From Escherichia phage FV3, in sequence record NC_019517.1: a stretch of 64,000 nucleotides of DNA; one strand, written 5' to 3'. Below the pieces are notes generated by a model, which worked only from the letters and a program-made list of their open reading frames with translations, searched no databases and had not been told where the DNA came from. A program made the translations under genes and the position numbers. Shown piece by piece: positions 21,958 through 63,516 of the stretch (position 1 is the first letter of the stretch; each line of letters opens with the position of its first letter).

Positions 21958-22968
21958 TTAGCCACCGTTTTTCAGAGTTACTTTAACAACCAACTCTGGA
22001 CGGGTGTTAACTGCCAACATGGAAGTTTCAGATTCAATCTTCTCTTCACGCAGGTATGCAGAGTGTTTGTACCACATGTACAGTTCCTGTGCTGGAGTGT
22101 TTGCTTCGTTAACATCATCTGCCGGAGCAAAGTGCAGCTGGAACATCTGATCAATACCCATCGGCAGAATGCGAGCTTCTTTCTTAGGAATATTGCCAGA
22201 GATATCTTCGATAAAGGTGATACCTTTATGTTCAAACACACGGTATACGCTGTCTTGACCGCCAGCACCCAGACGGCGACGCAGAGGTTCCTGAGCAGAG
22301 CCGTAGTAGGTGTATGCCAGTTCTACCAGCGGGTGATGAGTAACAGCGCTGAAGAACTCCGGTGAGCACAGAGCTACAATGCGATAGCCAGCTGCGTTGT
22401 CACCAGCTTGCAGTGCGATGTGCAGACGAGCTTCTTCCAGAACCTCCATAGGATCCTGATCTGCTTTTGCAGGGTCAATCTCAACAGACTTCTGAGACAC
22501 ACCCCACAGAGTGTAGTAATCATACTGGCAGGTAGCGTCACCCGGTGCATAGGATTTACCCAGAATAGCCTGGAACAGCGCTTTCTCACGCAGTGCTTCA
22601 TGGGAAACACGGATACGGCGAACAACGCGGGTTACTACGTCCTGAACAGTTTTCGGAGCATCAGGAGTGAAGTAACGACGGAAGTTCTGGACATCTGCAG
22701 CAGTGATGCCTTTATCCAGAGGGAAGAACGGGATGTTCAGGTTTTTAACCTGAGCACGTTCATTACCAACGTAGTTACGCTCACCACCACGACGGCGTGC
22801 CGGAATGTCGGTTACAACTTCATCAACACGCTCAATCTGAGCAATTGTTGAGGTGCCAAGACGAGTTTCGAACAGATCCATGCCGGTAATCAGGCGAAAT
22901 TGACGCGGAACAAGGTCCAGAGTAGCACCTAAATCGACAATGCCAAATTCATCTTTACGAGTAATCAT
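21958..22968 (-). CDS. Putative major capsid protein
   Basis: 336-aa ORF downstream of scaffold-like and small decoration-like ORFs and immediately followed by the strongest terminator of the module; size consistent with E-type or HK97-fold capsid proteins. Assignment by context. Confidence 0.55.
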   Translation of the reverse strand: MITRKDEFGIVDLGATLDLVPRQFRLITGMDLFETRLGTSTIAQIERVDEVVTDIPARRRGGERNYVGNERAQVKNLNIPFFPLDKGITAADVQNFRRYFTPDAPKTVQDVVTRVVRRIRVSHEALREKALFQAILGKSYAPGDATCQYDYYTLWGVSQKSVEIDPAKADQDPMEVLEEARLHIALQAGDNAAGYRIVALCSPEFFSAVTHHPLVELAYTYYGSAQEPLRRRLGAGGQDSVYRVFEHKGITFIEDISGNIPKKEARILPMGIDQMFQLHFAPADDVNEANTPAQELYMWYKHSAYLREEKIESETSMLAVNTRPELVVKVTLKNGG

Positions 22969-23019: not shown

Positions 23020-23406
23020 TTATTCACCAAGAGTCTGGACGTGAACTTTGTTACCTAAAGCTTCCAACTTATCCAGAATTCTTTGGTCTGCTTTAGCTCC
23101 ATCTGCACCTAACAGCATGTCTTTTGCAAAGGTAACACCATGGACGGCAACAACCAGGTTATAGGATTGTCCTACTTCTAACGGTTTTGCAAGATGGACC
23201 GTACCAGCATCTTTGACAAGAGCACGGTCAACAAGAACGCCGTACACATCAGAACCGTCTGCGTTAGCGATGGTACCAGTTTTTGTTACAACAGTGCCAG
23301 CGTGGTGATGCTCTGTCAGTGTTACCTTAATCTCTTTAAAATTGTAGCCAGCATCGCTAGAATCAACTTTGCCGAGCACGATATCAGAATATTGAGCGGT
23401 AATCAT
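23020..23406 (-). CDS. Putative head decoration / accessory capsid protein (128 aa)
   Basis: Small ORF immediately upstream of the capsid candidate; context-based. Confidence 0.3.
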   Translation of the reverse strand: MITAQYSDIVLGKVDSSDAGYNFKEIKVTLTEHHHAGTVVTKTGTIANADGSDVYGVLVDRALVKDAGTVHLAKPLEVGQSYNLVVAVHGVTFAKDMLLGADGAKADQRILDKLEALGNKVHVQTLGE

Positions 23407-23426: not shown

Positions 23427-24404
23427 TTATTTGGTAGATTCTGCACGTGCACGAGCAAGTGCTTTTGCAACGTTTTCAGCAAGAATTTCTTCTGCGGATT
23501 TCGCAATATCATCCACAACAGGTTCGCCATCATTACCATGTTCAGTGGTGGCAAACTCTTCTTTGGTTTTATGCACCTCTGCTTCCAGCTCTTCAATTTT
23601 GGCTTGAGCTTTCTCCAGCATAGCTACGATAGGTTCGTTAGCTTTTTCCAGCATGAAGTCAACCAGGGTTGCGTGATCTTCTTCACCAACAAAGCTTAAA
23701 GCTTGAGCCTTAGTCAGCATTTTAGCTTTTTCAACTTCAACCTGGGCCTTGATGATTTCTTCAGCTTTACTCTGGGTTGCTTTCAGCTCTTCTACTTGCT
23801 TCAGCAGATCCAGATACTCTTTAGTTTTGGTTACGTCCACCGGATTCTCCTCGGTATTTGCGGATTTTGCAACATCATCCACCTCGGTAGTTTTATCCAC
23901 CTCAGCAGGTTCCTGTACCGCCTTGATCAGGTTCCCTTCTTTATCGAAGAGATCAGCGGTTACTTGTTCAAAAATCTGTTGTGTTTTTAACAGGCTGTAC
24001 TGATCTGCCACACTAAGCTGCTTGCCTTCTTTTGCAGCTTTATGAATGGTCACGTTATCACAACGCTCTTCCAGCCATGCAATACAAGACTCTGCGTCAG
24101 CTTGCGCCCATTCCCAATCAGGATGCTCTTTAGCCCAAGCCTCCTCTTCAATCTCAAAACCAAGCATGTGTGCAAGTGCTTTAGCATCATCATACCACAT
24201 ATCGAAGAAACGACGCAGGTATTCTTCAAAACTAAGCTCCACAGTAACTTGGCGAAGTGCCTTAACAATATCGTCTGTTAACTGCTCAGGCTTAAGATCA
24301 CTCTTCATCAAAAGAGATACAGGCCTGTTGTTAGCGCTATAGCCTTGCGCCTTATGGCACAGGGCAATCCCCTTCTCTTTAATAGTAATCGTTTTTTCAG
24401 ACAT
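23427..24404 (-). CDS. Putative scaffolding protein
   Basis: 325-aa highly acidic, helix/coiled-coil-rich ORF (KIEELEAEVHKTKEEF) between portal and capsid genes. Confidence 0.45.
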   Translation of the reverse strand: MSEKTITIKEKGIALCHKAQGYSANNRPVSLLMKSDLKPEQLTDDIVKALRQVTVELSFEEYLRRFFDMWYDDAKALAHMLGFEIEEEAWAKEHPDWEWAQADAESCIAWLEERCDNVTIHKAAKEGKQLSVADQYSLLKTQQIFEQVTADLFDKEGNLIKAVQEPAEVDKTTEVDDVAKSANTEENPVDVTKTKEYLDLLKQVEELKATQSKAEEIIKAQVEVEKAKMLTKAQALSFVGEEDHATLVDFMLEKANEPIVAMLEKAQAKIEELEAEVHKTKEEFATTEHGNDGEPVVDDIAKSAEEILAENVAKALARARAESTK

Positions 24405-24835
24405 TATTCATTGCCCTCTTCTACAACACTGATCCCGAAGTTTACGTTGGTAATTTCACCAGTTTCTTCATCAACATTACCTGTTGCCTGAATGCTTAGG
24501 CCACCAACAATGCCAGCCTTCTTAGCTTCCCATAATTCAGGATTATTGTATTTAACTTTAGCAACCCAAGAGCCAGCCTTGATGACCTGCTCAGTGCCAA
24601 TTACTACAACATCAAACTCTTCTTGAATCCACGTCTTTTCAATAGTGAAAGCATCTGTAGAGGTCAAGTGAAAAAGGTTTTCAGAAACTAGGCCTGCGGC
24701 GTATGCTGCGTCCCAGTTATCTTTAGCCTTTTTGATGGTGTCTTTACTCATCCACTCGCCGTGAGCATCTTTAGTGTCAGGTTCGTAGATGATTTCGTAG
24801 GAAATCATTTCTTCCTGTGGCATCTTATTCCCCAT
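24404..24835 (-). CDS. Hypothetical head morphogenesis protein (possible prohead protease)
   Basis: ORF between portal and scaffold-like genes; ORF-track start at 24979 overlaps the portal 3' end by 88 nt, so an internal Met (24835 or 24823) is more plausible. Confidence 0.3.
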   Translation of the reverse strand: MGNKMPQEEMISYEIIYEPDTKDAHGEWMSKDTIKKAKDNWDAAYAAGLVSENLFHLTSTDAFTIEKTWIQEEFDVVVIGTEQVIKAGSWVAKVKYNNPELWEAKKAGIVGGLSIQATGNVDEETGEITNVNFGISVVEEGNE

Positions 24836-24890: not shown

Positions 24891-26447
24891 TTAATTTTCC
24901 ATGTTGGATATGGAATTATCTCTGGTTGATGACATCTTAGAAGTGCCGTTGCCAGTGGATCCTGCAGCCATTCCATCACCAGCCCTACTAATGTCCTGGC
25001 CCAAGAGCTTCATCAGCTCTTCCTGATCCATGTCCTCGTCAAATCTTTCATCAAACCCGCCTACTTCAAGAATCTTATTAATTACTGCAGGAGTTTTTGG
25101 CAAGTAACCTACAGCACCGATCCTCTGGACAAACTTGGAGAAGCTCTCCATATCCACTTCTTCAATCAGACCAGGTTTCAGTTTAGGCATATCATCATCT
25201 TCAAGGATGATACCATTCAATGCCAGAAGCTGCGGAATAAGATCTTTATTGAAGGCCTCAGTGATAATATCTATATCACGCTGAACAAAATGACCATGGA
25301 TAGACTGTTTTGACTCAGACAGAGAGAAGGATCCAACGTTATCGTTACCGAGGTTAATAAAGCCAGCACCGAAACGGTCAAGAATCGCCTTCTTACGGGC
25401 ATCAATCAAATCTTTAGTGGAATACTGCTTACCAATACCGTCAACCCCCTTCAGGGTCATGGAGTAAAGCTCTTTACCAGACTTATCTCTATCAGACGGA
25501 AGTATAAAGAAACTTTGCTCACCACTATGGGCGTTTGCTGCGTCAAGCATAAGGTCTGCAACCATTCTCCCTTCCATTGAATTAGGGTCAATGCTGGCCT
25601 TGTTTAAAATATTGGAAGGAATTTTCAGCTCAAGCACACCACCAAGGTCTTTAGAACAGCCAACAACCTCAAGGTTTTCAATCAGAACTTTCTCACGGAA
25701 AGATCTGTAGCAACCTATCATCGGTGACACACCTGCAGGGTTAGATTCTGTTCCTGACAGGGTCATGAGCATAAGCTTTTTAGCAGGGATGAAAATTTCA
25801 GGCTCATTAAAGCCTTTTGAAGGCATTGCAGCAAGAGGTCCAGCCCAGCGTGCATTCTGAGTGTTTAGAAATGCATTAGGTGATTGATAAATACCTGTCA
25901 GTGTTCTACTATTCTTGTCAAAGACAAACGGCTCTGATCTGGACAAACTGGCCTGAGGTCGGAATGCAATTTTATCAATAAGAAGCATCCCGGCATATTT
26001 ACCTTCTTTCTCTCTGCGGTATACTTTCTCAAACAGTGAAAAACCATACTCGTTAAAGGTAGCTGCGCTTCTTGCAATATCTCGAAGAGTTTGTTGGTTT
26101 GCCAAATTACGCAAAGAATACTCTATAAGCTCGGCAGCTTTCTTAGAGTCTTCACTTTTAACATTATAGAGGATCTTAAAATCATTGAATGCTTTCGTGA
26201 TGAAAACATATTTTGTATCTAAGGCAGTAGCAACTGTGGAATCACATTTCATAGTCTCCACGGTGGCAATCAGCTGAGGCCAACGCAATTCCTCAACCAT
26301 CATAGATTGCGATTCTGCCATAATTTGGGAAAGTGCGCCAGAACCGATCTCACTCATACGAACATTATGAGTTGGTGCGCCTGCGTTCCCAGATTTATTC
26401 ACAGTTTTGGCTGTGGCGTTGTGTTTCCTGCGGTTCTTTTTGGACAC
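24891..26447 (-). CDS. Putative portal protein
   Basis: 518-aa ORF immediately downstream of the large terminase gene; size and position typical of portal proteins. Confidence 0.55.
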   Translation of the reverse strand: MSKKNRRKHNATAKTVNKSGNAGAPTHNVRMSEIGSGALSQIMAESQSMMVEELRWPQLIATVETMKCDSTVATALDTKYVFITKAFNDFKILYNVKSEDSKKAAELIEYSLRNLANQQTLRDIARSAATFNEYGFSLFEKVYRREKEGKYAGMLLIDKIAFRPQASLSRSEPFVFDKNSRTLTGIYQSPNAFLNTQNARWAGPLAAMPSKGFNEPEIFIPAKKLMLMTLSGTESNPAGVSPMIGCYRSFREKVLIENLEVVGCSKDLGGVLELKIPSNILNKASIDPNSMEGRMVADLMLDAANAHSGEQSFFILPSDRDKSGKELYSMTLKGVDGIGKQYSTKDLIDARKKAILDRFGAGFINLGNDNVGSFSLSESKQSIHGHFVQRDIDIITEAFNKDLIPQLLALNGIILEDDDMPKLKPGLIEEVDMESFSKFVQRIGAVGYLPKTPAVINKILEVGGFDERFDEDMDQEELMKLLGQDISRAGDGMAAGSTGNGTSKMSSTRDNSISNMEN

Positions 26448-54487: not shown

Positions 54488-55282
54488 GTCAACGGTTAAC
54501 AAACTGGCCGTTGTAAAACTCTCCTAACCTCATAAGAGGGGTCGGTAAATCCGGCTAACGGGGAACGCTAAGGCGAAAGCTATGCCAATCCCGTGACTAG
54601 TTCTTACAGGAGTTGGAACGGTTGTAACGACTAACGAAAGGCAGAGATGCTTGACAAACATTTCTGAACCGAGTAGTGTAGGGGTTAGTTGAAATACTAA
54701 CTTCGAAAGGGAGAGACTCTATGAAAAAGATCATTCTTAATGGTGAAGAATCGAACTACGTGATTGATGAGGTGGGAAACGTATACGGAAAACGTGGAAT
54801 GCTGCACCCCATATTGTGGGGAGGTTATGGAAAAGGTAACAAGCATGTTAAACGCCGCTATATGTATTCTTTCAACCACAAAGGTAAGAAGATTCGAATC
54901 CAAACTTCAAGGGTTGTTGCCTTGTATTGTTTGCCAGATGTCCCAGAAGACCCTGAAAACTGGGAAGTGAATCATAAAGATGGCAATACATTGAATGATC
55001 ATCCGTCTAACCTAGAGTGGGTTTTGCCGGAAGATAATAAGAGACATGCTTTCCGAACAGGGCTTTGTCCAGGCAAGTGCTACAGGAAAGTGCAGGCATA
55101 CCAAGGGAAAACCTTGGTGGGTGAATATCCTTCACTCTATGCCTGTGCAAAAGCCTTAAATTTGAACGTAGGGAACGTCCATAGGGCTATCGAAGGAAAT
55201 GCCGAAGGTAAGCATCTCACAATAAAGGGTTATTATCTTATTGAAGTAGAGTAAGAGATAGTCTGGCCCTGTGGAAACACAG
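54488..55282 (+). mobile_element. Putative group I intron in nrdD carrying an HNH homing endonuclease ORF
   Basis: About 795 nt between two halves of one NrdD reading frame (length divisible by 3, both halves same frame); 5' about 230 nt are structured and noncoding, then HNH ORF 54721..55254. Exon 1 ends in U; intron ends in G. Confidence 0.5.
54721..55254 (+). CDS. Intron-encoded HNH homing endonuclease
   Basis: 177-aa ORF with HNH motif (EVNHKDGNTLNDHPSNLEWVLPEDNKRH) inside the nrdD interruption; own SD (GGGAGAG). Confidence 0.65.
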   Translation: MKKIILNGEESNYVIDEVGNVYGKRGMLHPILWGGYGKGNKHVKRRYMYSFNHKGKKIRIQTSRVVALYCLPDVPEDPENWEVNHKDGNTLNDHPSNLEWVLPEDNKRHAFRTGLCPGKCYRKVQAYQGKTLVGEYPSLYACAKALNLNVGNVHRAIEGNAEGKHLTIKGYYLIEVE

Positions 55283-56554
55283 GGGTGGAGACAGCAGACT
55301 CCATTCATCACATTAAGTTTAGGGCTGGATACTTCGGTCTTTGGTAGAATGATTACCAAAAACTACTTGAAAGTTCACAAAATGGGTCTTGGTGAAGAAC
55401 GGATCACACCTGTGTTCCCTAAAGTGCTGTTCTTCTTAGAGGAGGGTGTCAACATGAACCCTGGGGATCCTAACTACAATTTGAAACGATTGGCCCTAGA
55501 ATGCTCTGCAGAGCGGATTTATCCTGACTTTGTTTCTGTTCCGCTAAATCGTAAAGTGACAGGTTCAACAGACGGCAAAGTAACAAGCATGGGATGTAGG
55601 TCGTTCCTTGGCAAATACGTTACCCCGGAGGGTGATGAAAAATACCTTGGCAGATTCAACTTGGGTGTTGTTAGCCTTAACCTACCAATGATTGCGGCAA
55701 AAGCTAAGACGGAAGGTATTGATTTCTTTGCAGTTCTTGACGAATACTTGGATCTTGCATACGAGGCTCACCTTGTAAGGGTTAACCGTCTAAAAGGAAC
55801 AAAGGCAGGGCAGAACCCTATCATGTGGTGTGAAGGAGCTCTTGCTCGCCTGGATCCTGAAGAGAGTATCGATAAACTCTTCTATGACGGGTACGCTTCC
55901 ATCAGTATTGGGTATATTGGTGTGTATGAAACCTGTCAGATTTTGGGCAGAGAGGGTGACAAGGCTTTAGCTCTTGGAATCCTTCAGCACATGAAAGATG
56001 CTTGTGATCGATATAAGAAGGAAAGTGGACTAGCATTTAGCTTGTACGGCACACCTTCTGAGAGTTTATGCTATAAAGCTGCAACCTGTCTGGATCGTGA
56101 ATACCCAGAAGTGTTGAAGCACGAGCATGAATACCTCACCAACAGTTTCCATCAGCCGGTATGGATCAATAGCTCGCCTTTTGATAAGTGGAAGTATGAG
56201 GAAGGTTTTGCTATGATCTCCTCTGGTGGCAACATTGGGGACATAGAGACACCGAATCTGAAAAACAACTTAGATGCTTTAGAAGCTCTTGTTGATTTCG
56301 GATATAAACATATTATGTATTTTGGTATTAACCAGCCTGTGGATAAATGTCTTAAGTGTGGATTCTCTGGCGAGTTCAGTGCAACAGCTAAAGGCTTTGT
56401 ATGCCCAGAGTGTGGAAACCATGAAGAAGGAACGATCAGTGTGATCAGACGCGTATCCGGGTATCTGTCCAGTCCAAACTCCCGCCCTTACAATAAGGGT
56501 AAGCAAGCTGAGGTTATAGAACGGGTTAAGCACTACGGAAGTTGTGGTTGCTGA
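55283..56554 (+). CDS. nrdD: Anaerobic ribonucleotide reductase NrdD, exon 2
   Basis: Conserved NrdD core (MGCRSFL, FNLGVVSLNLP), C-terminal zinc site (CLKCG...CPECG) and glycyl-radical motif (RVSGYLS). Confidence 0.7.
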   Translation, partial: GWRQQTPFITLSLGLDTSVFGRMITKNYLKVHKMGLGEERITPVFPKVLFFLEEGVNMNPGDPNYNLKRLALECSAERIYPDFVSVPLNRKVTGSTDGKVTSMGCRSFLGKYVTPEGDEKYLGRFNLGVVSLNLPMIAAKAKTEGIDFFAVLDEYLDLAYEAHLVRVNRLKGTKAGQNPIMWCEGALARLDPEESIDKLFYDGYASISIGYIGVYETCQILGREGDKALALGILQHMKDACDRYKKESGLAFSLYGTPSESLCYKAATCLDREYPEVLKHEHEYLTNSFHQPVWINSSPFDKWKYEEGFAMISSGGNIGDIETPNLKNNLDALEALVDFGYKHIMYFGINQPVDKCLKCGFSGEFSATAKGFVCPECGNHEEGTISVIRRVSGYLSSPNSRPYNKGKQAEVIERVKHYGSCGC

Positions 56555-57765: not shown

Positions 57766-58554
57766 ATGGGTCGAGCTAAAGAAACAAAACGCATGCGTGA
57801 TGAAGCTAGAGAGGCTCGCAAATCTGATCGCCTGCGTAAGGCTGCTGAAAAATTTGCTGACGAACGAGAGCACACCGCTCCAGCTCTCCGACCAATGAAT
57901 AAAAAGCAGCAAAAGTATCTTGATTATCTAGGGTCGCGTAAGATTATCATTGTAAACGGTGTGTTTGGATCCGGTAAGACATTCATGGCATCTGCATATG
58001 CAGGTGATCTTCTGCGCAAGAACGAGATTGATAAGATCATTGTTGCACGTCCTTACGTTCAGACAGGAAAGACTTCAGGATTTAAACCTGGAAATGCAAT
58101 GCAGAAACTGTGGCCCTATCTTCGAAGCATGATGGACACTATTTGTCGTCGTGTTGGCAAAGGTGCTTTTGCAGCAATGCTTGGGGACGGTCAGAACAGC
58201 CGTATCGAGATTTGTGAGGTTGAAAGCATTCGTGGTCGTAGTTTTGATGAACGATGCTTTGTCCTTATTGATGAAGCACAGCAAACTAACCCTGAAGAAA
58301 TGTTGTCAATTATCACAAGGATCTCTGATCAGGCCACCCTTGTAATTATGGGCGATAACAGCCAACGTGACATCCCTGGTAAATCTGGCCTTGCATGGGT
58401 GACAGATTTCTTTACTCGTCATCCAGATCCTGAGGTTGGAATGATTAGCTTTGATAGTCCAGACGATGTCGTTCGTTCCGGGCTGGGTCGTCAGATTGCA
58501 CTCAATCTTATTGAGGATCGTGCAAATCATATTTGGACTCCTGTTTCCGAGTAA
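57766..58554 (+). CDS. phoH: PhoH-like ATPase
   Basis: 262-aa ORF with Walker A (VNGVFGSGKTF) and Walker B-like (CFVLIDEAQ) motifs. Confidence 0.75.
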   Translation: MGRAKETKRMRDEAREARKSDRLRKAAEKFADEREHTAPALRPMNKKQQKYLDYLGSRKIIIVNGVFGSGKTFMASAYAGDLLRKNEIDKIIVARPYVQTGKTSGFKPGNAMQKLWPYLRSMMDTICRRVGKGAFAAMLGDGQNSRIEICEVESIRGRSFDERCFVLIDEAQQTNPEEMLSIITRISDQATLVIMGDNSQRDIPGKSGLAWVTDFFTRHPDPEVGMISFDSPDDVVRSGLGRQIALNLIEDRANHIWTPVSE

Positions 58555-58598
58555 TACAGAAGGGTGGTTATTCCACCCTTAAATATCTAAAACAGTTG

Positions 58599-58627
58599 TT
58601 GACAAACAGGTGAGCTTTAGATATTAT
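58599..58627 (+). promoter_or_regulatory. Sigma70-type promoter
   Basis: TTGACA (58599-58604), 17 nt, TATTAT (58622-58627); preceded by a weak hairpin terminator (58561-58586). Confidence 0.55.
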
Positions 58628-58657
58628 TATTGGACAAAACAAGGAGAAGGACACAGT

Positions 58658-58969
58658 ATGGCTACAATACAAGAGAGACTGAATAAAATATACTGCCTGT
58701 TTGTCTATAACGGTGAGACAATTTTGGCAAATAAGGGATCCAAGAGTGTGTGGACCAAGGACAGTGGTGGTAACATAATCAACTTAGCGTTGCTACGTGA
58801 GCGCAGACACAGATTCTTTATCGAGTCTCGGATTATTGAAAGCAGCACCTGCTACAGAACAGGCGATAAAGTAATTGTTGACAATGATACGTGGTATGTG
58901 GTAGACTGGCAATCATTGAGCTGTGATGCTTCTGACAATCGTAAGTATTCTATAGTGATTGCTAAATAA
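58658..58969 (+). CDS. Hypothetical protein (about 103 aa)
   Basis: ATG 58658 (MATIQERL...) after AAGGAGAAGG SD; ORF-track start 58610 overlaps the promoter. Confidence 0.3.
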   Translation: MATIQERLNKIYCLFVYNGETILANKGSKSVWTKDSGGNIINLALLRERRHRFFIESRIIESSTCYRTGDKVIVDNDTWYVVDWQSLSCDASDNRKYSIVIAK

Positions 58970-59029
58970 AGGTAAATGTGAATCAGGTTTAAATAAATAG
59001 CTTTCAACTTCCAATATTAAGGATTTCTC

Positions 59030-60079
59030 ATGAATTTAACACCTCGCAGCACCATGGTACACGGCATGAAAGAAAAACAGAACGGTTTCGAACCTATGAG
59101 TAACAAAATGTTTGGTATGCCTGGTGGTATTATGGAAACATACAGCTACCCAACACCTGTTGTTGACCACGTTCTTTATATCGACGATTTGGACGACCTA
59201 CAAGATCATATGTCTCGTCTACAGACGATCCGTATGGCTCAGCCAGAAGAAAGTATCCGTGTAATCATTAACAGCCCTGGTGGTTGCGTTCACATTGCTA
59301 TGGCGTATTTGCAGGCATTCCGCGAGTCTCAGGCAAGCGTTGTTGTACACGCTGAAGGGATGTGCTGTTCAGCAGGAACAATCTTATGGCTAGGTTGCAA
59401 AGAACGAACTGTGGCTCCGGACACAGAATTTATGTTCCACTATTATCAAGGTGGCACTTATGGTAACGGCGTGAACATGAATACCCAGGTCAACTACTGG
59501 AAGAAACGTTTTGAACGCCTGATCGAAAAATACTACGGTGGGGTGTTAACAGAAGATGAGATCGCATCCATCACAGCTGGCGGTGAAGTGTGGTTAGATG
59601 GAGAAGAGCTGGCATCTAGAACTGGTGCTATCATTCTGGACGATGAAAACATTCAGCGCATTCAGAATGGACAGAAACCGAAAAAGCTTTTGGCAAAAAG
59701 TGATGAAGAAGGTGTGCTAGGCGAAGCAGGCCTGCCAGAGATTCACCAATGCACATCTTTGGACGAGCTGGTTCATGCTGTTGAGTCTGCAAAAGAAAAT
59801 GGTATGAAAGGTGATGTTCACACTGTGTTCCTGAATCTGCAGATGGAGAGTGGTGAGACCGTTAAGATTGCACTGGGTGAGATTACCTCGGAAGATCTGC
59901 AGCGATTCTCTGTGGTAGAGCTTCAGGACATTTTGTCCCAATTGAAAACTACCCTGAACGGAGGTGAAGAAGTTCAGGTGAAAGATAAGACTCGCAAGCG
60001 TCTGGTGGACAATATTATTAAAACAGCAAAAGAGCTCAATGAAAAAATCCTGGGCGCAGGAATTGTCGAAGAAGCTTAA
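59030..60079 (+). CDS. ClpP-like serine protease domain protein with C-terminal extension
   Basis: ClpP/S14-type motifs (IINSPGG, Ser in GMCCSAGT, His in FMFHYY) within the first about 200 aa, followed by an about 140-aa acidic/helical extension. Confidence 0.5.
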   Translation: MNLTPRSTMVHGMKEKQNGFEPMSNKMFGMPGGIMETYSYPTPVVDHVLYIDDLDDLQDHMSRLQTIRMAQPEESIRVIINSPGGCVHIAMAYLQAFRESQASVVVHAEGMCCSAGTILWLGCKERTVAPDTEFMFHYYQGGTYGNGVNMNTQVNYWKKRFERLIEKYYGGVLTEDEIASITAGGEVWLDGEELASRTGAIILDDENIQRIQNGQKPKKLLAKSDEEGVLGEAGLPEIHQCTSLDELVHAVESAKENGMKGDVHTVFLNLQMESGETVKIALGEITSEDLQRFSVVELQDILSQLKTTLNGGEEVQVKDKTRKRLVDNIIKTAKELNEKILGAGIVEEA

Positions 60080-60091
60080 ACATTAATTCTA

Positions 60092-60114
60092 AAGCCCTCT
60101 TCGGAGGGCTTTTA
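60092..60114 (+). terminator. Intrinsic terminator
   Basis: agccctc-ttcg-gagggct tetraloop hairpin followed by TTTTAT. Confidence 0.55.
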
Positions 60115-60130
60115 TGATCTGGAGATTTGC

Positions 60131-62854: not shown

Positions 62855-63058
62855 TTGAAAAAGGGGACAGTAATGACAAAAAATAAATCCTTAGAACAGG
62901 CTGAAAACCTTCTCCACGAGCTGGTAAAGGAGTGGAAAGTTGAATACTCAGATTTTAATGCAAGAGAGGGGGAAGATTATTGGCCTACGGAGCGCTCAGA
63001 GGGAGAGTGGTATCAAGATTTCATAGAATGGTTATATCAGACGTGCGATGAGGGGTGA
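62855..63058 (+). CDS. Hypothetical protein (67 aa)
   Basis: Short acidic ORF; coupled to the next gene. Confidence 0.25.
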   Translation: MKKGTVMTKNKSLEQAENLLHELVKEWKVEYSDFNAREGEDYWPTERSEGEWYQDFIEWLYQTCDEG

Positions 63059-63516
63059 CGATGTTTGTTAAATATGTAAAAACGTGCCTCAACAACCTTG
63101 GTAGAGAGCATTGGTACACCTTGCTTGAAAAAGGAGAAATTTTAACAAAATCTGGAAAGATAACTCTGATACCTTTGGATGATAAAGACCCGTCACTACT
63201 TGTCATAGATGATTACGTTACAGGTGTGTCGTACGAGGTCTCTGTGGAGAGGTTAATACGCAGATCTGGAGGGCCTTATGACCGAAGAGAGTATGTTTTC
63301 GATTCTGTTACAGAGAAGGAGGATCCGTCTCTAATGTTTAGGATGGTAATCAGGGATATGAAATCATCTATAAATAGGATTGTAAAGGACATTAAGGAGC
63401 CTTTTAGGGTAAAAGTTAAGAAGTTTTTTGATTCTAAGATTAACATACTCGCCGTTGTGCTAGGCGTAATTCAACTTCTGTTAATTTTGCACTATCTTGA
63501 ACTGTTGTTCAAGTAG
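63055..63516 (+). CDS. Hypothetical protein with C-terminal membrane anchor (153 aa)
   Basis: Hydrophobic C-terminus (ILAVVLGVIQLLLILHYL). Confidence 0.3.
   Translation: MTMFVKYVKTCLNNLGREHWYTLLEKGEILTKSGKITLIPLDDKDPSLLVIDDYVTGVSYEVSVERLIRRSGGPYDRREYVFDSVTEKEDPSLMFRMVIRDMKSSINRIVKDIKEPFRVKVKKFFDSKINILAVVLGVIQLLLILHYLELLFK

What the first reader, a model, noticed from the sequence alone, without database searches (positions are those of the whole stretch)
59030..60079. ClpP-like protease with long C-terminal extension located in the early metabolic region
The ORF carries ClpP/S14 signatures (IINSPGG, Ser-containing GMCCSAGT, His in FMFHYY) followed by an about 140-aa acidic helical extension. 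It lies far from the head module, which already has its own scaffold/protease candidates. So it may be a phage ClpP homologue that remodels host proteolysis or degrades a defence factor rather than a prohead protease, or a protease-scaffold fusion kept in an unusual location.
Basis: partly seen in the sequence, partly recalled or inferred. Interest (0 to 1): 0.55.

Follow-up and report, generated by a model that had tools for sequence, protein, structure and literature searches.

The report
Non-structural ClpP-fold protease of rV5-like phage
This gene, from an rV5-like E. coli phage, encodes a real ClpP-fold serine protease already annotated in over 100 related phages; it sits outside the head genes and lacks the surface that normal ClpP uses to dock its ATP-driven partners, so its usual label "ATP-dependent ClpP subunit" is probably wrong and its function is still unknown.

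Summary
ORF 59030-60079 (+), 349 aa, carries the IINSPGG, GMCCSAGT and FMFHYY motifs. It models confidently as a ClpP fold and has a ~134-aa C-terminal extension.

The window is a Vequintavirus and the ORF is the orthologue of rV5 gp122, annotated as ClpP since 2013, so the gene itself is not new.

It is not the head protease. The head module, ~33 kb away on the other strand, has its own XkdF-type protease next to a scaffold gene. The ORF forms a two-gene unit with gp121, bracketed by a sigma-70 promoter and a terminator. No gp122 peptides appear in rV5 virion MS. Homologues in five other virulent phage lineages always lie among non-structural genes, and the ICP1 orthologue is expressed middle-late.

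It is not a canonical ClpP either. The triad acid is Glu here and Gln in 35 of 40 relatives. The docking-pocket residues for ClpX/ClpA are replaced by invariant polar residues.

The extension is not scaffold-like. It is a flexible linker plus an orphan ~85-aa domain found only in this family.

Best reading: a cytoplasmic middle-phase protease that does not use canonical unfoldase docking, with unknown substrate. The result is a modest reclassification of moderate-to-low interest.

The parts
58599..58627 (+). sigma-70-type promoter (TTGACA-17 nt-TATTAT), equivalent to rV5 P121; start of the two-gene unit
   Evidence: 11 of 12 consensus match in the promoter scan. The same site is listed as promoter P121 in rV5 Table S4. 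It follows a hairpin (58560-58580) just after the phoH stop codon.
58658..58969 (+). gp121 homologue, 103 aa, unknown function, co-transcribed upstream gene
   Evidence: ORF and sequence. PHROG 5456, unknown function. A homologue in Seunavirus 4MG (4MG_142, 30% identity, E 2e-8) lies two genes upstream of that phage's ClpP-like gene.
59019..59023 (+). ribosome-binding site AAGGA, 6 nt before the ATG
   Evidence: Read directly from the sequence.
59030..60079 (+). ClpP-fold serine protease ORF (349 aa), orthologue of rV5 gp122
59030..59161 (+). N-terminal region, aa 1-44: variable leader followed by a conserved FGxPG...YSYP motif; predicted disordered
   Evidence: pLDDT 33-44. G29, Y40 and P41 are invariant. 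Mean identity to the query is 26%. The ClpP helix alpha-A position is occupied by a Pro-rich stretch.
59162..59674 (+). ClpP-fold protease domain, aa 45-215; Ser114 codon at 59369-59371, His137 codon at 59438-59440
   Evidence: pLDDT about 90. Foldseek top hits are all ClpP. hhalign to E. coli ClpP gives 95.7% probability. S114 and H137 are invariant.
59675..59815 (+). flexible, poorly conserved linker, aa 216-262
   Evidence: pLDDT 38-57. Mean identity 16% and variable length across the family.
59816..60064 (+). orphan C-terminal domain, aa 263-345: beta-hairpin plus three helices, with invariant F293, E297 and R322
   Evidence: core pLDDT 80-93. No significant PDB, Pfam or BFVD relatives. 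In 1.84 billion representative proteins it is found only in family members.
60094..60115 (+). intrinsic terminator GCCCTCTTCGGAGGGCTTTTAT, equivalent to rV5 t122
   Evidence: Sequence read directly. Identical to terminator t122 in rV5 Table S4, delta-G -14.9 kcal/mol.

Best explanation
The ORF encodes a catalytically competent ClpP-fold serine peptidase with a Ser114-His137 dyad. It belongs to a phage-specific clade (PHROG 5410/1827) that is neither the capsid maturation protease nor a canonical ClpP subunit. It is transcribed with the small gene gp121 from its own sigma-70-type promoter, in the nucleotide-metabolism and replication block, and most likely acts in the cytoplasm of the infected cell during the middle phase. 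It has lost the hydrophobic pocket that ClpP uses to dock ClpX/ClpA, and it lacks the alpha-A helix and axial-loop region. I therefore infer that it works without canonical unfoldase docking, on peptides or unfolded or specifically recruited proteins. I also infer that the orphan C-terminal domain, held on a flexible linker, is the targeting or partner-binding module. Shown here: the fold, the catalytic residues, the loss of the pocket, triad acid and Arg sensor, the transcription-unit signals, the non-structural synteny, and the orphan status of the C-terminal domain. Inferred: the cytoplasmic site of action, independence from an unfoldase, and the targeting role of the C-terminal domain. The substrate is unknown.
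For: Fold and active site. Separate transcription unit: promoter TTGACA-17-TATTAT and terminator. The rV5 late motif TGGTAAAATA clusters on the minus strand of the structural region, with no proper copy upstream of this gene. A dedicated head protease exists elsewhere: XkdF/Peptidase_S78_2, 65 bits, between portal and scaffold. Its ICP1 counterpart gp125 lies in the late capsid operon and its CB7 counterpart was detected in virions. gp122 is not flagged as MS-detected in the rV5 gene table, and no gp122 peptides occur in the rV5 virion MS table. The CB7 virion proteome paper nowhere mentions Clp, and its only protease is the head-module CB7_5. Non-structural context is conserved in Vequintavirus, Seunavirus, ICP1, vibriophage eugene, a T5-like Klebsiella phage, N4-like VBP47 and PaP1. 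ICP1 gp211 is classed 'Middle-late' with NrdAB and PhoH. Pocket loss: Y60->R, F82->E, I90->H, M92->E and F112->T in 40 of 40 sequences, L114->S/A, L23->P/H, and L48-A52 fall in a 5-residue deletion; the pocket residue list comes from bioRxiv 10.1101/820209. The triad acid is Q in 35 of 40 and E in 5 of 40, and the preceding Arg is an invariant Gly. The gene is a conserved core gene with native composition.
Against: There is no experimental evidence for activity, oligomeric state, substrate or site of action. Absence from mature virions is weak evidence, because prohead proteases often self-digest and leave the capsid. By profile score the nearest annotated relatives are ClpP-related head maturation proteases (NF045542 is the best NCBIfam hit; PHROGs 1684, 94, 2976, 133), and these also lack an unfoldase pocket. 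Middle-late timing in ICP1 would still allow a role in assembly. Loss of the canonical pocket does not exclude docking to an ATPase through another surface. L189 and R192 could not be mapped, and the N-terminus is modelled with low confidence.
Confidence: 0.45

Rival explanations
1. It is an auxiliary morphogenetic protease: a second prohead or assembly protease, targeted into assembling particles by its C-terminal domain, that degrades the scaffold or processes another virion component.
For: The best NCBIfam hit is the ClpP-related head maturation protease model (62.8 bits), and several 'head maturation protease' PHROGs match, one out to aa 259. The Ser-His dyad without Asp and the missing unfoldase pocket are also what a capsid-enclosed protease would show. 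A C-terminal targeting segment is a known feature of prohead proteases such as HK97 gp4 (established knowledge). The ICP1 orthologue is middle-late, in the same class as a neighbouring gp5-like baseplate hub gene.
Against: The head module already has an XkdF-type protease directly upstream of the scaffold. The gene has its own sigma-70 promoter and terminator rather than a late-type promoter. No peptides appear in rV5 virions. The MCP N-terminus is intact in rV5 virions, so no MCP processing is needed. The C-terminal profile does not resemble the scaffold. Homologues also occur in T5-like and N4-like phages at non-structural positions. The NF045542 score is below its cut-off.
Confidence: 0.2
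2. It is a true ClpP subunit, as annotated ('ATP-dependent Clp protease proteolytic subunit'), that forms homo- or hetero-tetradecamers and works with host ClpX/ClpA to redirect host proteolysis.
For: Pfam CLP_protease scores above its gathering threshold. All top structural matches are ClpP. The Ser and His are in ClpP register and the handle helix is present.
Against: The docking-pocket residues are replaced by invariant Arg, Glu, His, Glu and Thr, and alpha-B is shortened over L48-A52. The triad Asp is Gln in most members, and the preceding Arg, which is the inter-ring sensor in ClpP (established knowledge), is an invariant Gly. The clpP equivalog models score 22-41 bits against cut-offs of 228-361. 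The N-terminal axial-loop and alpha-A region is not conserved.
Confidence: 0.1
3. It is a counter-defence or host-takeover protease that specifically cleaves a host factor (a defence protein, or a nucleoid- or RNA-associated protein), recruited by a nucleic-acid-binding, Rho-N/SAP-like C-terminal domain. This is a more specific version of the best explanation.
Against: All similarities of the C-terminal domain are below significance. There are no hits to defence or anti-defence models. The gene is a conserved core gene with 95-99% identity across ~117 genomes, not an accessory arms-race gene. The ICP1 orthologue is not immediate-early.
Confidence: 0.15

Closest known systems
Bacterial ClpP (MEROPS S14; E. 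coli ClpP, PDB 1TYF/6WR2)
   Same: Same fold (TM 0.65-0.72). Shared INSPGG oxyanion region, catalytic Ser and His in register, and handle helix.
   Different: About 20% identity. Asp171 is replaced by Glu or Gln and Arg170 by Gly. The IGF/IGL docking pocket is replaced by polar or charged residues. There is no alpha-A helix or canonical axial loop. A 134-aa C-terminal extension is added. The clpP equivalog HMMs score far below their cut-offs.
ClpP-related phage head maturation proteases (NCBIfam NF045542; PHROGs 1684/94/2976/133; e.g. Gordonia phage Easley gp5)
   Same: These are the best-scoring annotated relatives by profile. The protease domain aligns at 26% identity with Easley gp5. Both are phage-encoded and carry C-terminal extensions.
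   Different: The score is below the family cut-off (62.8 against 120). The gene is not in the head module, is not under a late-type promoter and is not detected in virions. The C-terminal extension is not homologous.
Vibrio phage ICP1 gp211 (ORF211) and other PHROG 1827 'ATP-dependent proteases' (PaP1 gp041, VBP47 gp68, T5-like Klebsiella phages)
   Same: Same clade of protease domain (36% identity with ICP1). ICP1 shares the NrdAB...PhoH-small ORF-protease...ligase neighbourhood. Ser, His and Glu109 are invariant.
   Different: Most members are short (~180-200 aa) with no extension. ICP1 has a long extension with no detectable similarity to this one. None has been characterised functionally; only the expression class of ICP1 gp211 is known.
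rV5 gp122 and Vequintavirus orthologues annotated 'ClpP-like protease'
   Same: Orthologues at 95-99.7% protein identity with identical context.
   Different: Nothing substantive. This window's gene is one more copy of an already annotated but unstudied gene.

Membership tests
Canonical ClpP (S14, ATP-dependent Clp protease proteolytic subunit) | ClpP alpha/beta fold with handle helix | tested here: met
   AlphaFold model pLDDT about 90 over aa 45-215. The top 50 Foldseek PDB hits are all ClpP, with TMt 0.55-0.72.
Canonical ClpP (S14, ATP-dependent Clp protease proteolytic subunit) | Pfam PF00574 above the gathering score | tested here: met
   50 bits against a cut-off of 20.2, covering aa 59-168.
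Canonical ClpP (S14, ATP-dependent Clp protease proteolytic subunit) | clpP equivalog or subfamily HMMs (TIGR00493, NF001368, NF009205 and others) above their cut-offs | tested here: not met
   33.5 against 308.6, 38.1 against 249, and 41.1 against 228 bits.
Canonical ClpP (S14, ATP-dependent Clp protease proteolytic subunit) | Ser-His-Asp catalytic triad | tested here: not met
   Ser114 and His137 are invariant, but the Asp171 position is Glu186 here, Gln in 35 of 40 relatives and Asp only in ICP1.
Canonical ClpP (S14, ATP-dependent Clp protease proteolytic subunit) | Hydrophobic pocket that docks the IGF/IGL loops of ClpX/ClpA (L23, L48, F49, A52, Y60, Y62, F82, I90, M92, F112, L114, L189) | tested here: not met
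   Y60->R, F82->E, I90->H, M92->E and F112->T in 40 of 40 sequences; L114->S/A; L23->P/H; L48-A52 lie in a deletion; only Y62->V/I stays hydrophobic; L189 was not mappable. The residue list is from bioRxiv 10.1101/820209.
Canonical ClpP (S14, ATP-dependent Clp protease proteolytic subunit) | N-terminal axial loops and helix alpha-A that gate the pore | tested here: inconclusive
   aa 1-41 are modelled with pLDDT below 50. The alpha-A position aligns with the Pro-rich stretch PTPVVD. A conserved FGxPG...YSYP motif of unknown role is present.
Canonical ClpP (S14, ATP-dependent Clp protease proteolytic subunit) | Double-heptamer assembly and ATPase-dependent protein degradation | not testable with these tools
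   No multimer modelling or biochemistry was available. The Arg170 inter-ring sensor position is an invariant Gly.
ClpP-related phage head maturation protease (NF045542 and related PHROGs) | Family HMM above its cut-off | tested here: not met
   62.8 bits against a cut-off of 120. PHROG head-protease families match far more weakly than the ORF's own PHROG 5410.
ClpP-related phage head maturation protease (NF045542 and related PHROGs) | Encoded in the head module between the portal and the scaffold or MCP | tested here: not met
   The ORF lies ~33 kb from the head module, on the opposite strand, between phoH and a methyltransferase. The same non-structural context holds in six other phages.
ClpP-related phage head maturation protease (NF045542 and related PHROGs) | Late expression with the structural genes | tested here: inconclusive
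   It has its own sigma-70-type promoter and terminator and no late motif. The ICP1 orthologue is 'Middle-late', whereas the capsid operon is late. No transcriptome is available for a Vequintavirus.
ClpP-related phage head maturation protease (NF045542 and related PHROGs) | Incorporated into procapsids and cleaves scaffold or MCP | not testable with these tools
   The only indirect evidence is that no peptides appear in rV5 virion MS and that the MCP N-terminus is intact.
Protease-scaffold fusion (lambda C/Nu3-like arrangement) | C-terminal part homologous or similar to a scaffolding protein | tested here: not met
   hhalign of the C-terminal profile against this phage's own scaffold gives probability 0.2%. 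The fold is a small beta-hairpin plus 3-helix domain, not an extended coiled coil. No scaffold hits occur in BFVD or the PDB.
S49 SppA / SDH-type / NfeD ClpP-class peptidases | Family HMM above its cut-off | tested here: not met
   SDH_protease 18.2 against 31.3; NfeD1b_N 15.4 against 40; SppA_dom 14.3 against 155.

The most novel reading that the evidence does not exclude
PHROG 5410/1827 may be a widespread, uncharacterised class of phage ClpP-fold proteases found in virulent phages (rV5-like, ICP1-like, PAK_P1-like, T5-like and N4-like). On this reading they have given up unfoldase docking and act as autonomous cytoplasmic proteases during the middle phase of infection. In Vequintavirinae the protease would be steered by an orphan, possibly nucleic-acid-binding C-terminal domain toward a specific host or phage substrate, for example a DNA- or RNA-bound host factor or a defence protein.
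Probability: 0.25. Interest if true: 0.6.

Novelty: new variant of a known kind. Interest (0 to 1): 0.35.

Why it matters
More than a thousand phage records carry a gene of this clade labelled 'ATP-dependent Clp protease subunit' or, occasionally, 'head maturation protease'. The analysis here suggests that both labels are probably wrong for the rV5-type protein. It retains a working Ser-His active site but has lost the features that make ClpP ATP-dependent, and it is not part of the head assembly module. If this is confirmed, annotation of the clade should change to something like 'ClpP-fold peptidase, non-structural'. A conserved middle-phase protease of therapeutic-candidate E. coli phages, and of ICP1, would then become a defined target for genetics. 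The finding does not itself reveal a new mechanism.

Tried and rejected
1. Protease-scaffold fusion. Rejected: the C-terminal profile shows no similarity to the phage's own scaffold, the fold is not scaffold-like, and the long tblastn alignment to Gordonia phage Easley gp5 is real only in the protease domain.
3. The same C-terminal domain in other architectures. An exhaustive profile search of 1.84 billion proteins found only family members plus three spurious repetitive or LRR proteins.
4. Homology between the rV5-type and ICP1 extensions. None detected.
5. A universally conserved small partner ORF upstream. gp121 has a homologue in Seunavirus 4MG, and ICP1 ORF210 matches eugene_182, but I found no link between the two pairs. 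My first comparison used a wrong reading frame for gp121. After correction I re-compared it only with 4MG_142.
6. Defence or anti-defence models (PADLOC). No relevant hit.
7. Literature search for functional work on phage ClpP-like proteins, on ICP1 gp211, or on gene essentiality in a Vequintavirus. Nothing found beyond annotation and the ICP1 expression class.
8. A late promoter upstream of the gene. Only a 1-mismatch match inside gp121, consistent with chance.
9. Horizontal acquisition. GC and GC3 match the neighbouring genes.

Full report
IDENTITY OF THE WINDOW AND THE ORF

The 3-kb region around the finding is 94-98% identical at the DNA level to about 120 Vequintavirus (rV5-like) E. coli myovirus genomes. 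The ORF at 59030-60079 (+) is real, 349 aa, and preceded by an AAGGA ribosome-binding site. It is the orthologue of rV5 gp122, annotated 'ClpP (ATP-dependent) protease subunit' in 2013, and of the genes labelled 'ClpP-like protease' in the BASEL phages. About 117 phage records encode a protein at least 95% identical. Its GC and GC3 content match the neighbouring genes. The gene is therefore a conserved core gene that is already annotated, but I found no functional study of it.

THE OBSERVATION

- Pfam CLP_protease scores 50 bits against a cut-off of 20.2.
- An AlphaFold model built on a 40-sequence family alignment has pLDDT about 90 for aa 45-215.
- Its top 50 Foldseek matches in the PDB are all ClpP (TM 0.55-0.72 normalised to target, ~20% identity).
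- hhalign of the family profile against E. coli ClpP gives 95.7% probability.
- Ser114 and His137 are invariant in all 40 family members and in the distant ICP1 and PaP1 homologues.

The extension (aa 216-349) is real but only mildly acidic, with 25 D/E against 17 K/R, and it is not simply helical. It has two parts:
- a poorly conserved linker modelled with low confidence (aa 216-262, 16% mean identity);
- a conserved domain (aa 263-345, invariant F293, E297 and R322) made of a beta-hairpin and three helices, with core pLDDT 80-93 when modelled alone.

IT IS NOT THE HEAD PROTEASE

The head module lies on the minus strand about 33 kb away: portal 24891-26447, a 139-aa XkdF-type protease (Peptidase_S78_2, 65 bits against a cut-off of 24) at 24404-24823, scaffold 23427-24404, decoration protein 23020-23406, and a lambda-E-type MCP 21958-22968. 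The equivalent ICP1 gene, gp125, is the predicted capsid protease of the late capsid operon. The CB7 equivalent was detected in virions.

The ClpP-like gene instead forms a compact unit with the 103-aa gene gp121.
- A near-consensus sigma-70 promoter (TTGACA-17-TATTAT, 58599-58627) matches rV5 promoter P121.
- An intrinsic terminator (60094-60115) matches rV5 t122.
- The rV5 late-type motif TGGTAAAATA is enriched in the window (18 matches against 6.2 expected). Most matches lie on the minus strand of the structural region, and there is no convincing copy upstream of this gene.

Virion proteomics points the same way.
- rV5's gene table flags gp133 and gp137 as MS-detected but not gp122.
- Six diagnostic gp122 peptide substrings are absent from the raw rV5 MS table.
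- The CB7 virion proteome paper nowhere mentions Clp, and its only protease is the head-module CB7_5.
- MCP peptides start at residue 5, so the MCP is not N-terminally processed.

COMPARATIVE CONTEXT

Full-length homologues occur only in Vequintavirinae-like phages. The protease domain also occurs in ICP1, vibriophage eugene, PAK_P1/PaP1-like Pseudomonas phages, T5-like Klebsiella phages, N4-like VBP47 and others. In every case I inspected, the gene lies among non-structural genes:
- NrdAB ... PhoH - small ORF - protease ... ligase in ICP1 and eugene;
- NrdB - Grx - lysozyme - PhoH - three ORFs - protease - methyltransferase in Seunavirus 4MG;
- next to dNMP kinase in a T5-like phage;
- at the start of a block of small ORFs in VBP47;
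- among ligase and dCMP deaminase genes in PaP1.

The ICP1 RNA-seq study classes gp211 as 'Middle-late', together with NrdAB and PhoH, whereas the capsid operon is late. This favours a non-structural role. Middle-late timing does not by itself exclude a role in assembly.

IT IS NOT A CANONICAL ClpP

Using the hhalign and phmmer registers, I mapped the residues that form the IGF/IGL-loop docking pocket of E. coli ClpP. The published list is L48, F49, A52 and F82 from one protomer and L23, Y60, Y62, I90, M92, F112, L114 and L189 from its neighbour (bioRxiv 10.1101/820209). In all 40 family members:
- Y60 is Arg, F82 is Glu, I90 is His, M92 is Glu and F112 is Thr;
- L114 is Ser or Ala, and L23 is Pro or His;
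- only Y62 stays hydrophobic (Val or Ile);
- L48-A52 fall in a 5-residue deletion of helix alpha-B.

The triad Asp171 position is Glu here and Gln in 35 of 40 relatives. The preceding Arg is an invariant Gly; from established knowledge of ClpP, that Arg is the inter-ring sensor. The N-terminal 41 residues are predicted disordered, and the alpha-A position is Pro-rich. The clpP equivalog HMMs score 22-41 bits against cut-offs of 228-361.

The best NCBIfam hit is the ClpP-related head maturation protease model, but at 62.8 bits it is below its cut-off of 120. The protein therefore belongs to a distinct phage clade (PHROG 5410, then 1827) that fails the membership tests for both ClpP and the head-maturation family.

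THE C-TERMINAL DOMAIN

I found no significant relative for it:
- a profile search of PDB sequences gave best E 0.33;
- Pfam gave only sub-threshold SAP and HeH hits for single members;
- BFVD gave a single hit, apparently a family member;
- an exhaustive profile search of 1.84 billion representative proteins found five family members plus three spurious repetitive or LRR proteins;
- it does not resemble the phage's own scaffold or the ICP1 extension.

It is an orphan, lineage-specific module. The Rho-N/SAP-like resemblance is a lead only.

MOST LIKELY MECHANISM

I commit to the following, with a probability of roughly 0.45. The protein is an active Ser-His ClpP-fold peptidase made in the middle phase from its own promoter. 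It acts in the cytoplasm without canonical docking to ClpX or ClpA, and the tethered C-terminal domain provides targeting or partner binding. The substrate is unknown.

Rival explanations:
- an auxiliary morphogenetic protease (about 0.2);
- a specific counter-defence or host-takeover protease, which is a more specific form of the best explanation (about 0.15);
- a true ClpP partner of the host unfoldases, as currently annotated (about 0.1).

The main caveats are the complete lack of biochemical or genetic data, the weak evidential value of absence from virions, and the fact that loss of the canonical pocket does not exclude another ATPase partner. The neighbouring PhoH-like P-loop ATPase is syntenic in four lineages, but it is not an AAA+ unfoldase, so I treat a functional link between the two as speculation.

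VERDICT

The gene is already annotated in many genomes. What this analysis adds is a reclassification: it is neither the head protease nor a canonical ATP-dependent ClpP, and it carries an orphan C-terminal domain. Interest is moderate to low (0.35). I rate it a new variant of a known kind.

Noticed in passing
window 63055-63516 (+): This 153-aa ORF with a C-terminal hydrophobic segment appears, by position and length, to be the homologue of rV5 gp133. The rV5 paper reports gp133 as one of the predominant proteins in virion MS, although it is encoded in the non-structural block and has one predicted transmembrane domain. The downstream gp137 is flagged in the same way.
   Followed up: no
GenBank records, e.g. 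MG065661.1 Campylobacter phage C9: About 18-19 records named 'Campylobacter phage', with host given as C. jejuni, are 90-96% identical to this E. coli Vequintavirus over the region. One encodes a ClpP-like protein 96% identical to this one. The host assignment looks doubtful; contamination or mislabelling is possible.
   Followed up: no
window 24404-24823 (-); L004 (PaP1) gp048: The XkdF-type head protease matches the C-terminal third (positions 244-373 of 379) of PHROG 1530, which is annotated 'DNA methyltransferase'. In PaP1 the gene just past the structural protein that follows the terminase is annotated 'N6 adenine-specific DNA methyltransferase'. Either a methyltransferase-XkdF fusion exists in those phages or the annotation has been mis-propagated.
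   Followed up: partly
window 57766-60079 (+); L003, L006, L007: A PhoH-like ATPase gene lies one to three small ORFs upstream of the ClpP-like gene in Vequintavirus, Seunavirus 4MG, ICP1 and vibriophage eugene, always downstream of nrdAB. This synteny is old and spans lineages, and its meaning is unknown.
   Followed up: partly
window 1-28000, minus strand: The rV5 'late promoter' motif TGGTAAAATA (up to 1 mismatch) occurs 18 times in the window against 6.2 expected. Most copies lie on the minus strand of the structural gene block.
   Followed up: partly
window 21958-22968 (-), MCP: In the published rV5 virion MS data the MCP is covered from residue 5 onward (peptide R.KDEFGIVDLGATLDLVPR). 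The lambda-E-type capsid protein is therefore not N-terminally processed, and any head proteolysis must act on the scaffold or portal.
   Followed up: partly
window 55271-56554 (+): The anaerobic ribonucleotide reductase (NrdD) ORF, which carries the glycyl-radical motif RVSGY, ends at 56554. By colinear mapping, the annotated NrdD of phage DrSchubert ends about 390 nt earlier and is followed by three tiny ORFs. This may be an annotation, frameshift or indel difference between relatives. The mapping assumes colinearity and I did not verify it.
   Followed up: no
literature, ICP1: The ICP1 scaffold (gp124, 39 kDa) is cleaved into fragments of about 23 and 17 kDa when expressed in E. coli without any phage protease, and the cleavage is blocked by protease inhibitors. 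Scaffold processing in this head type may therefore not strictly need a phage protease.
   Followed up: no
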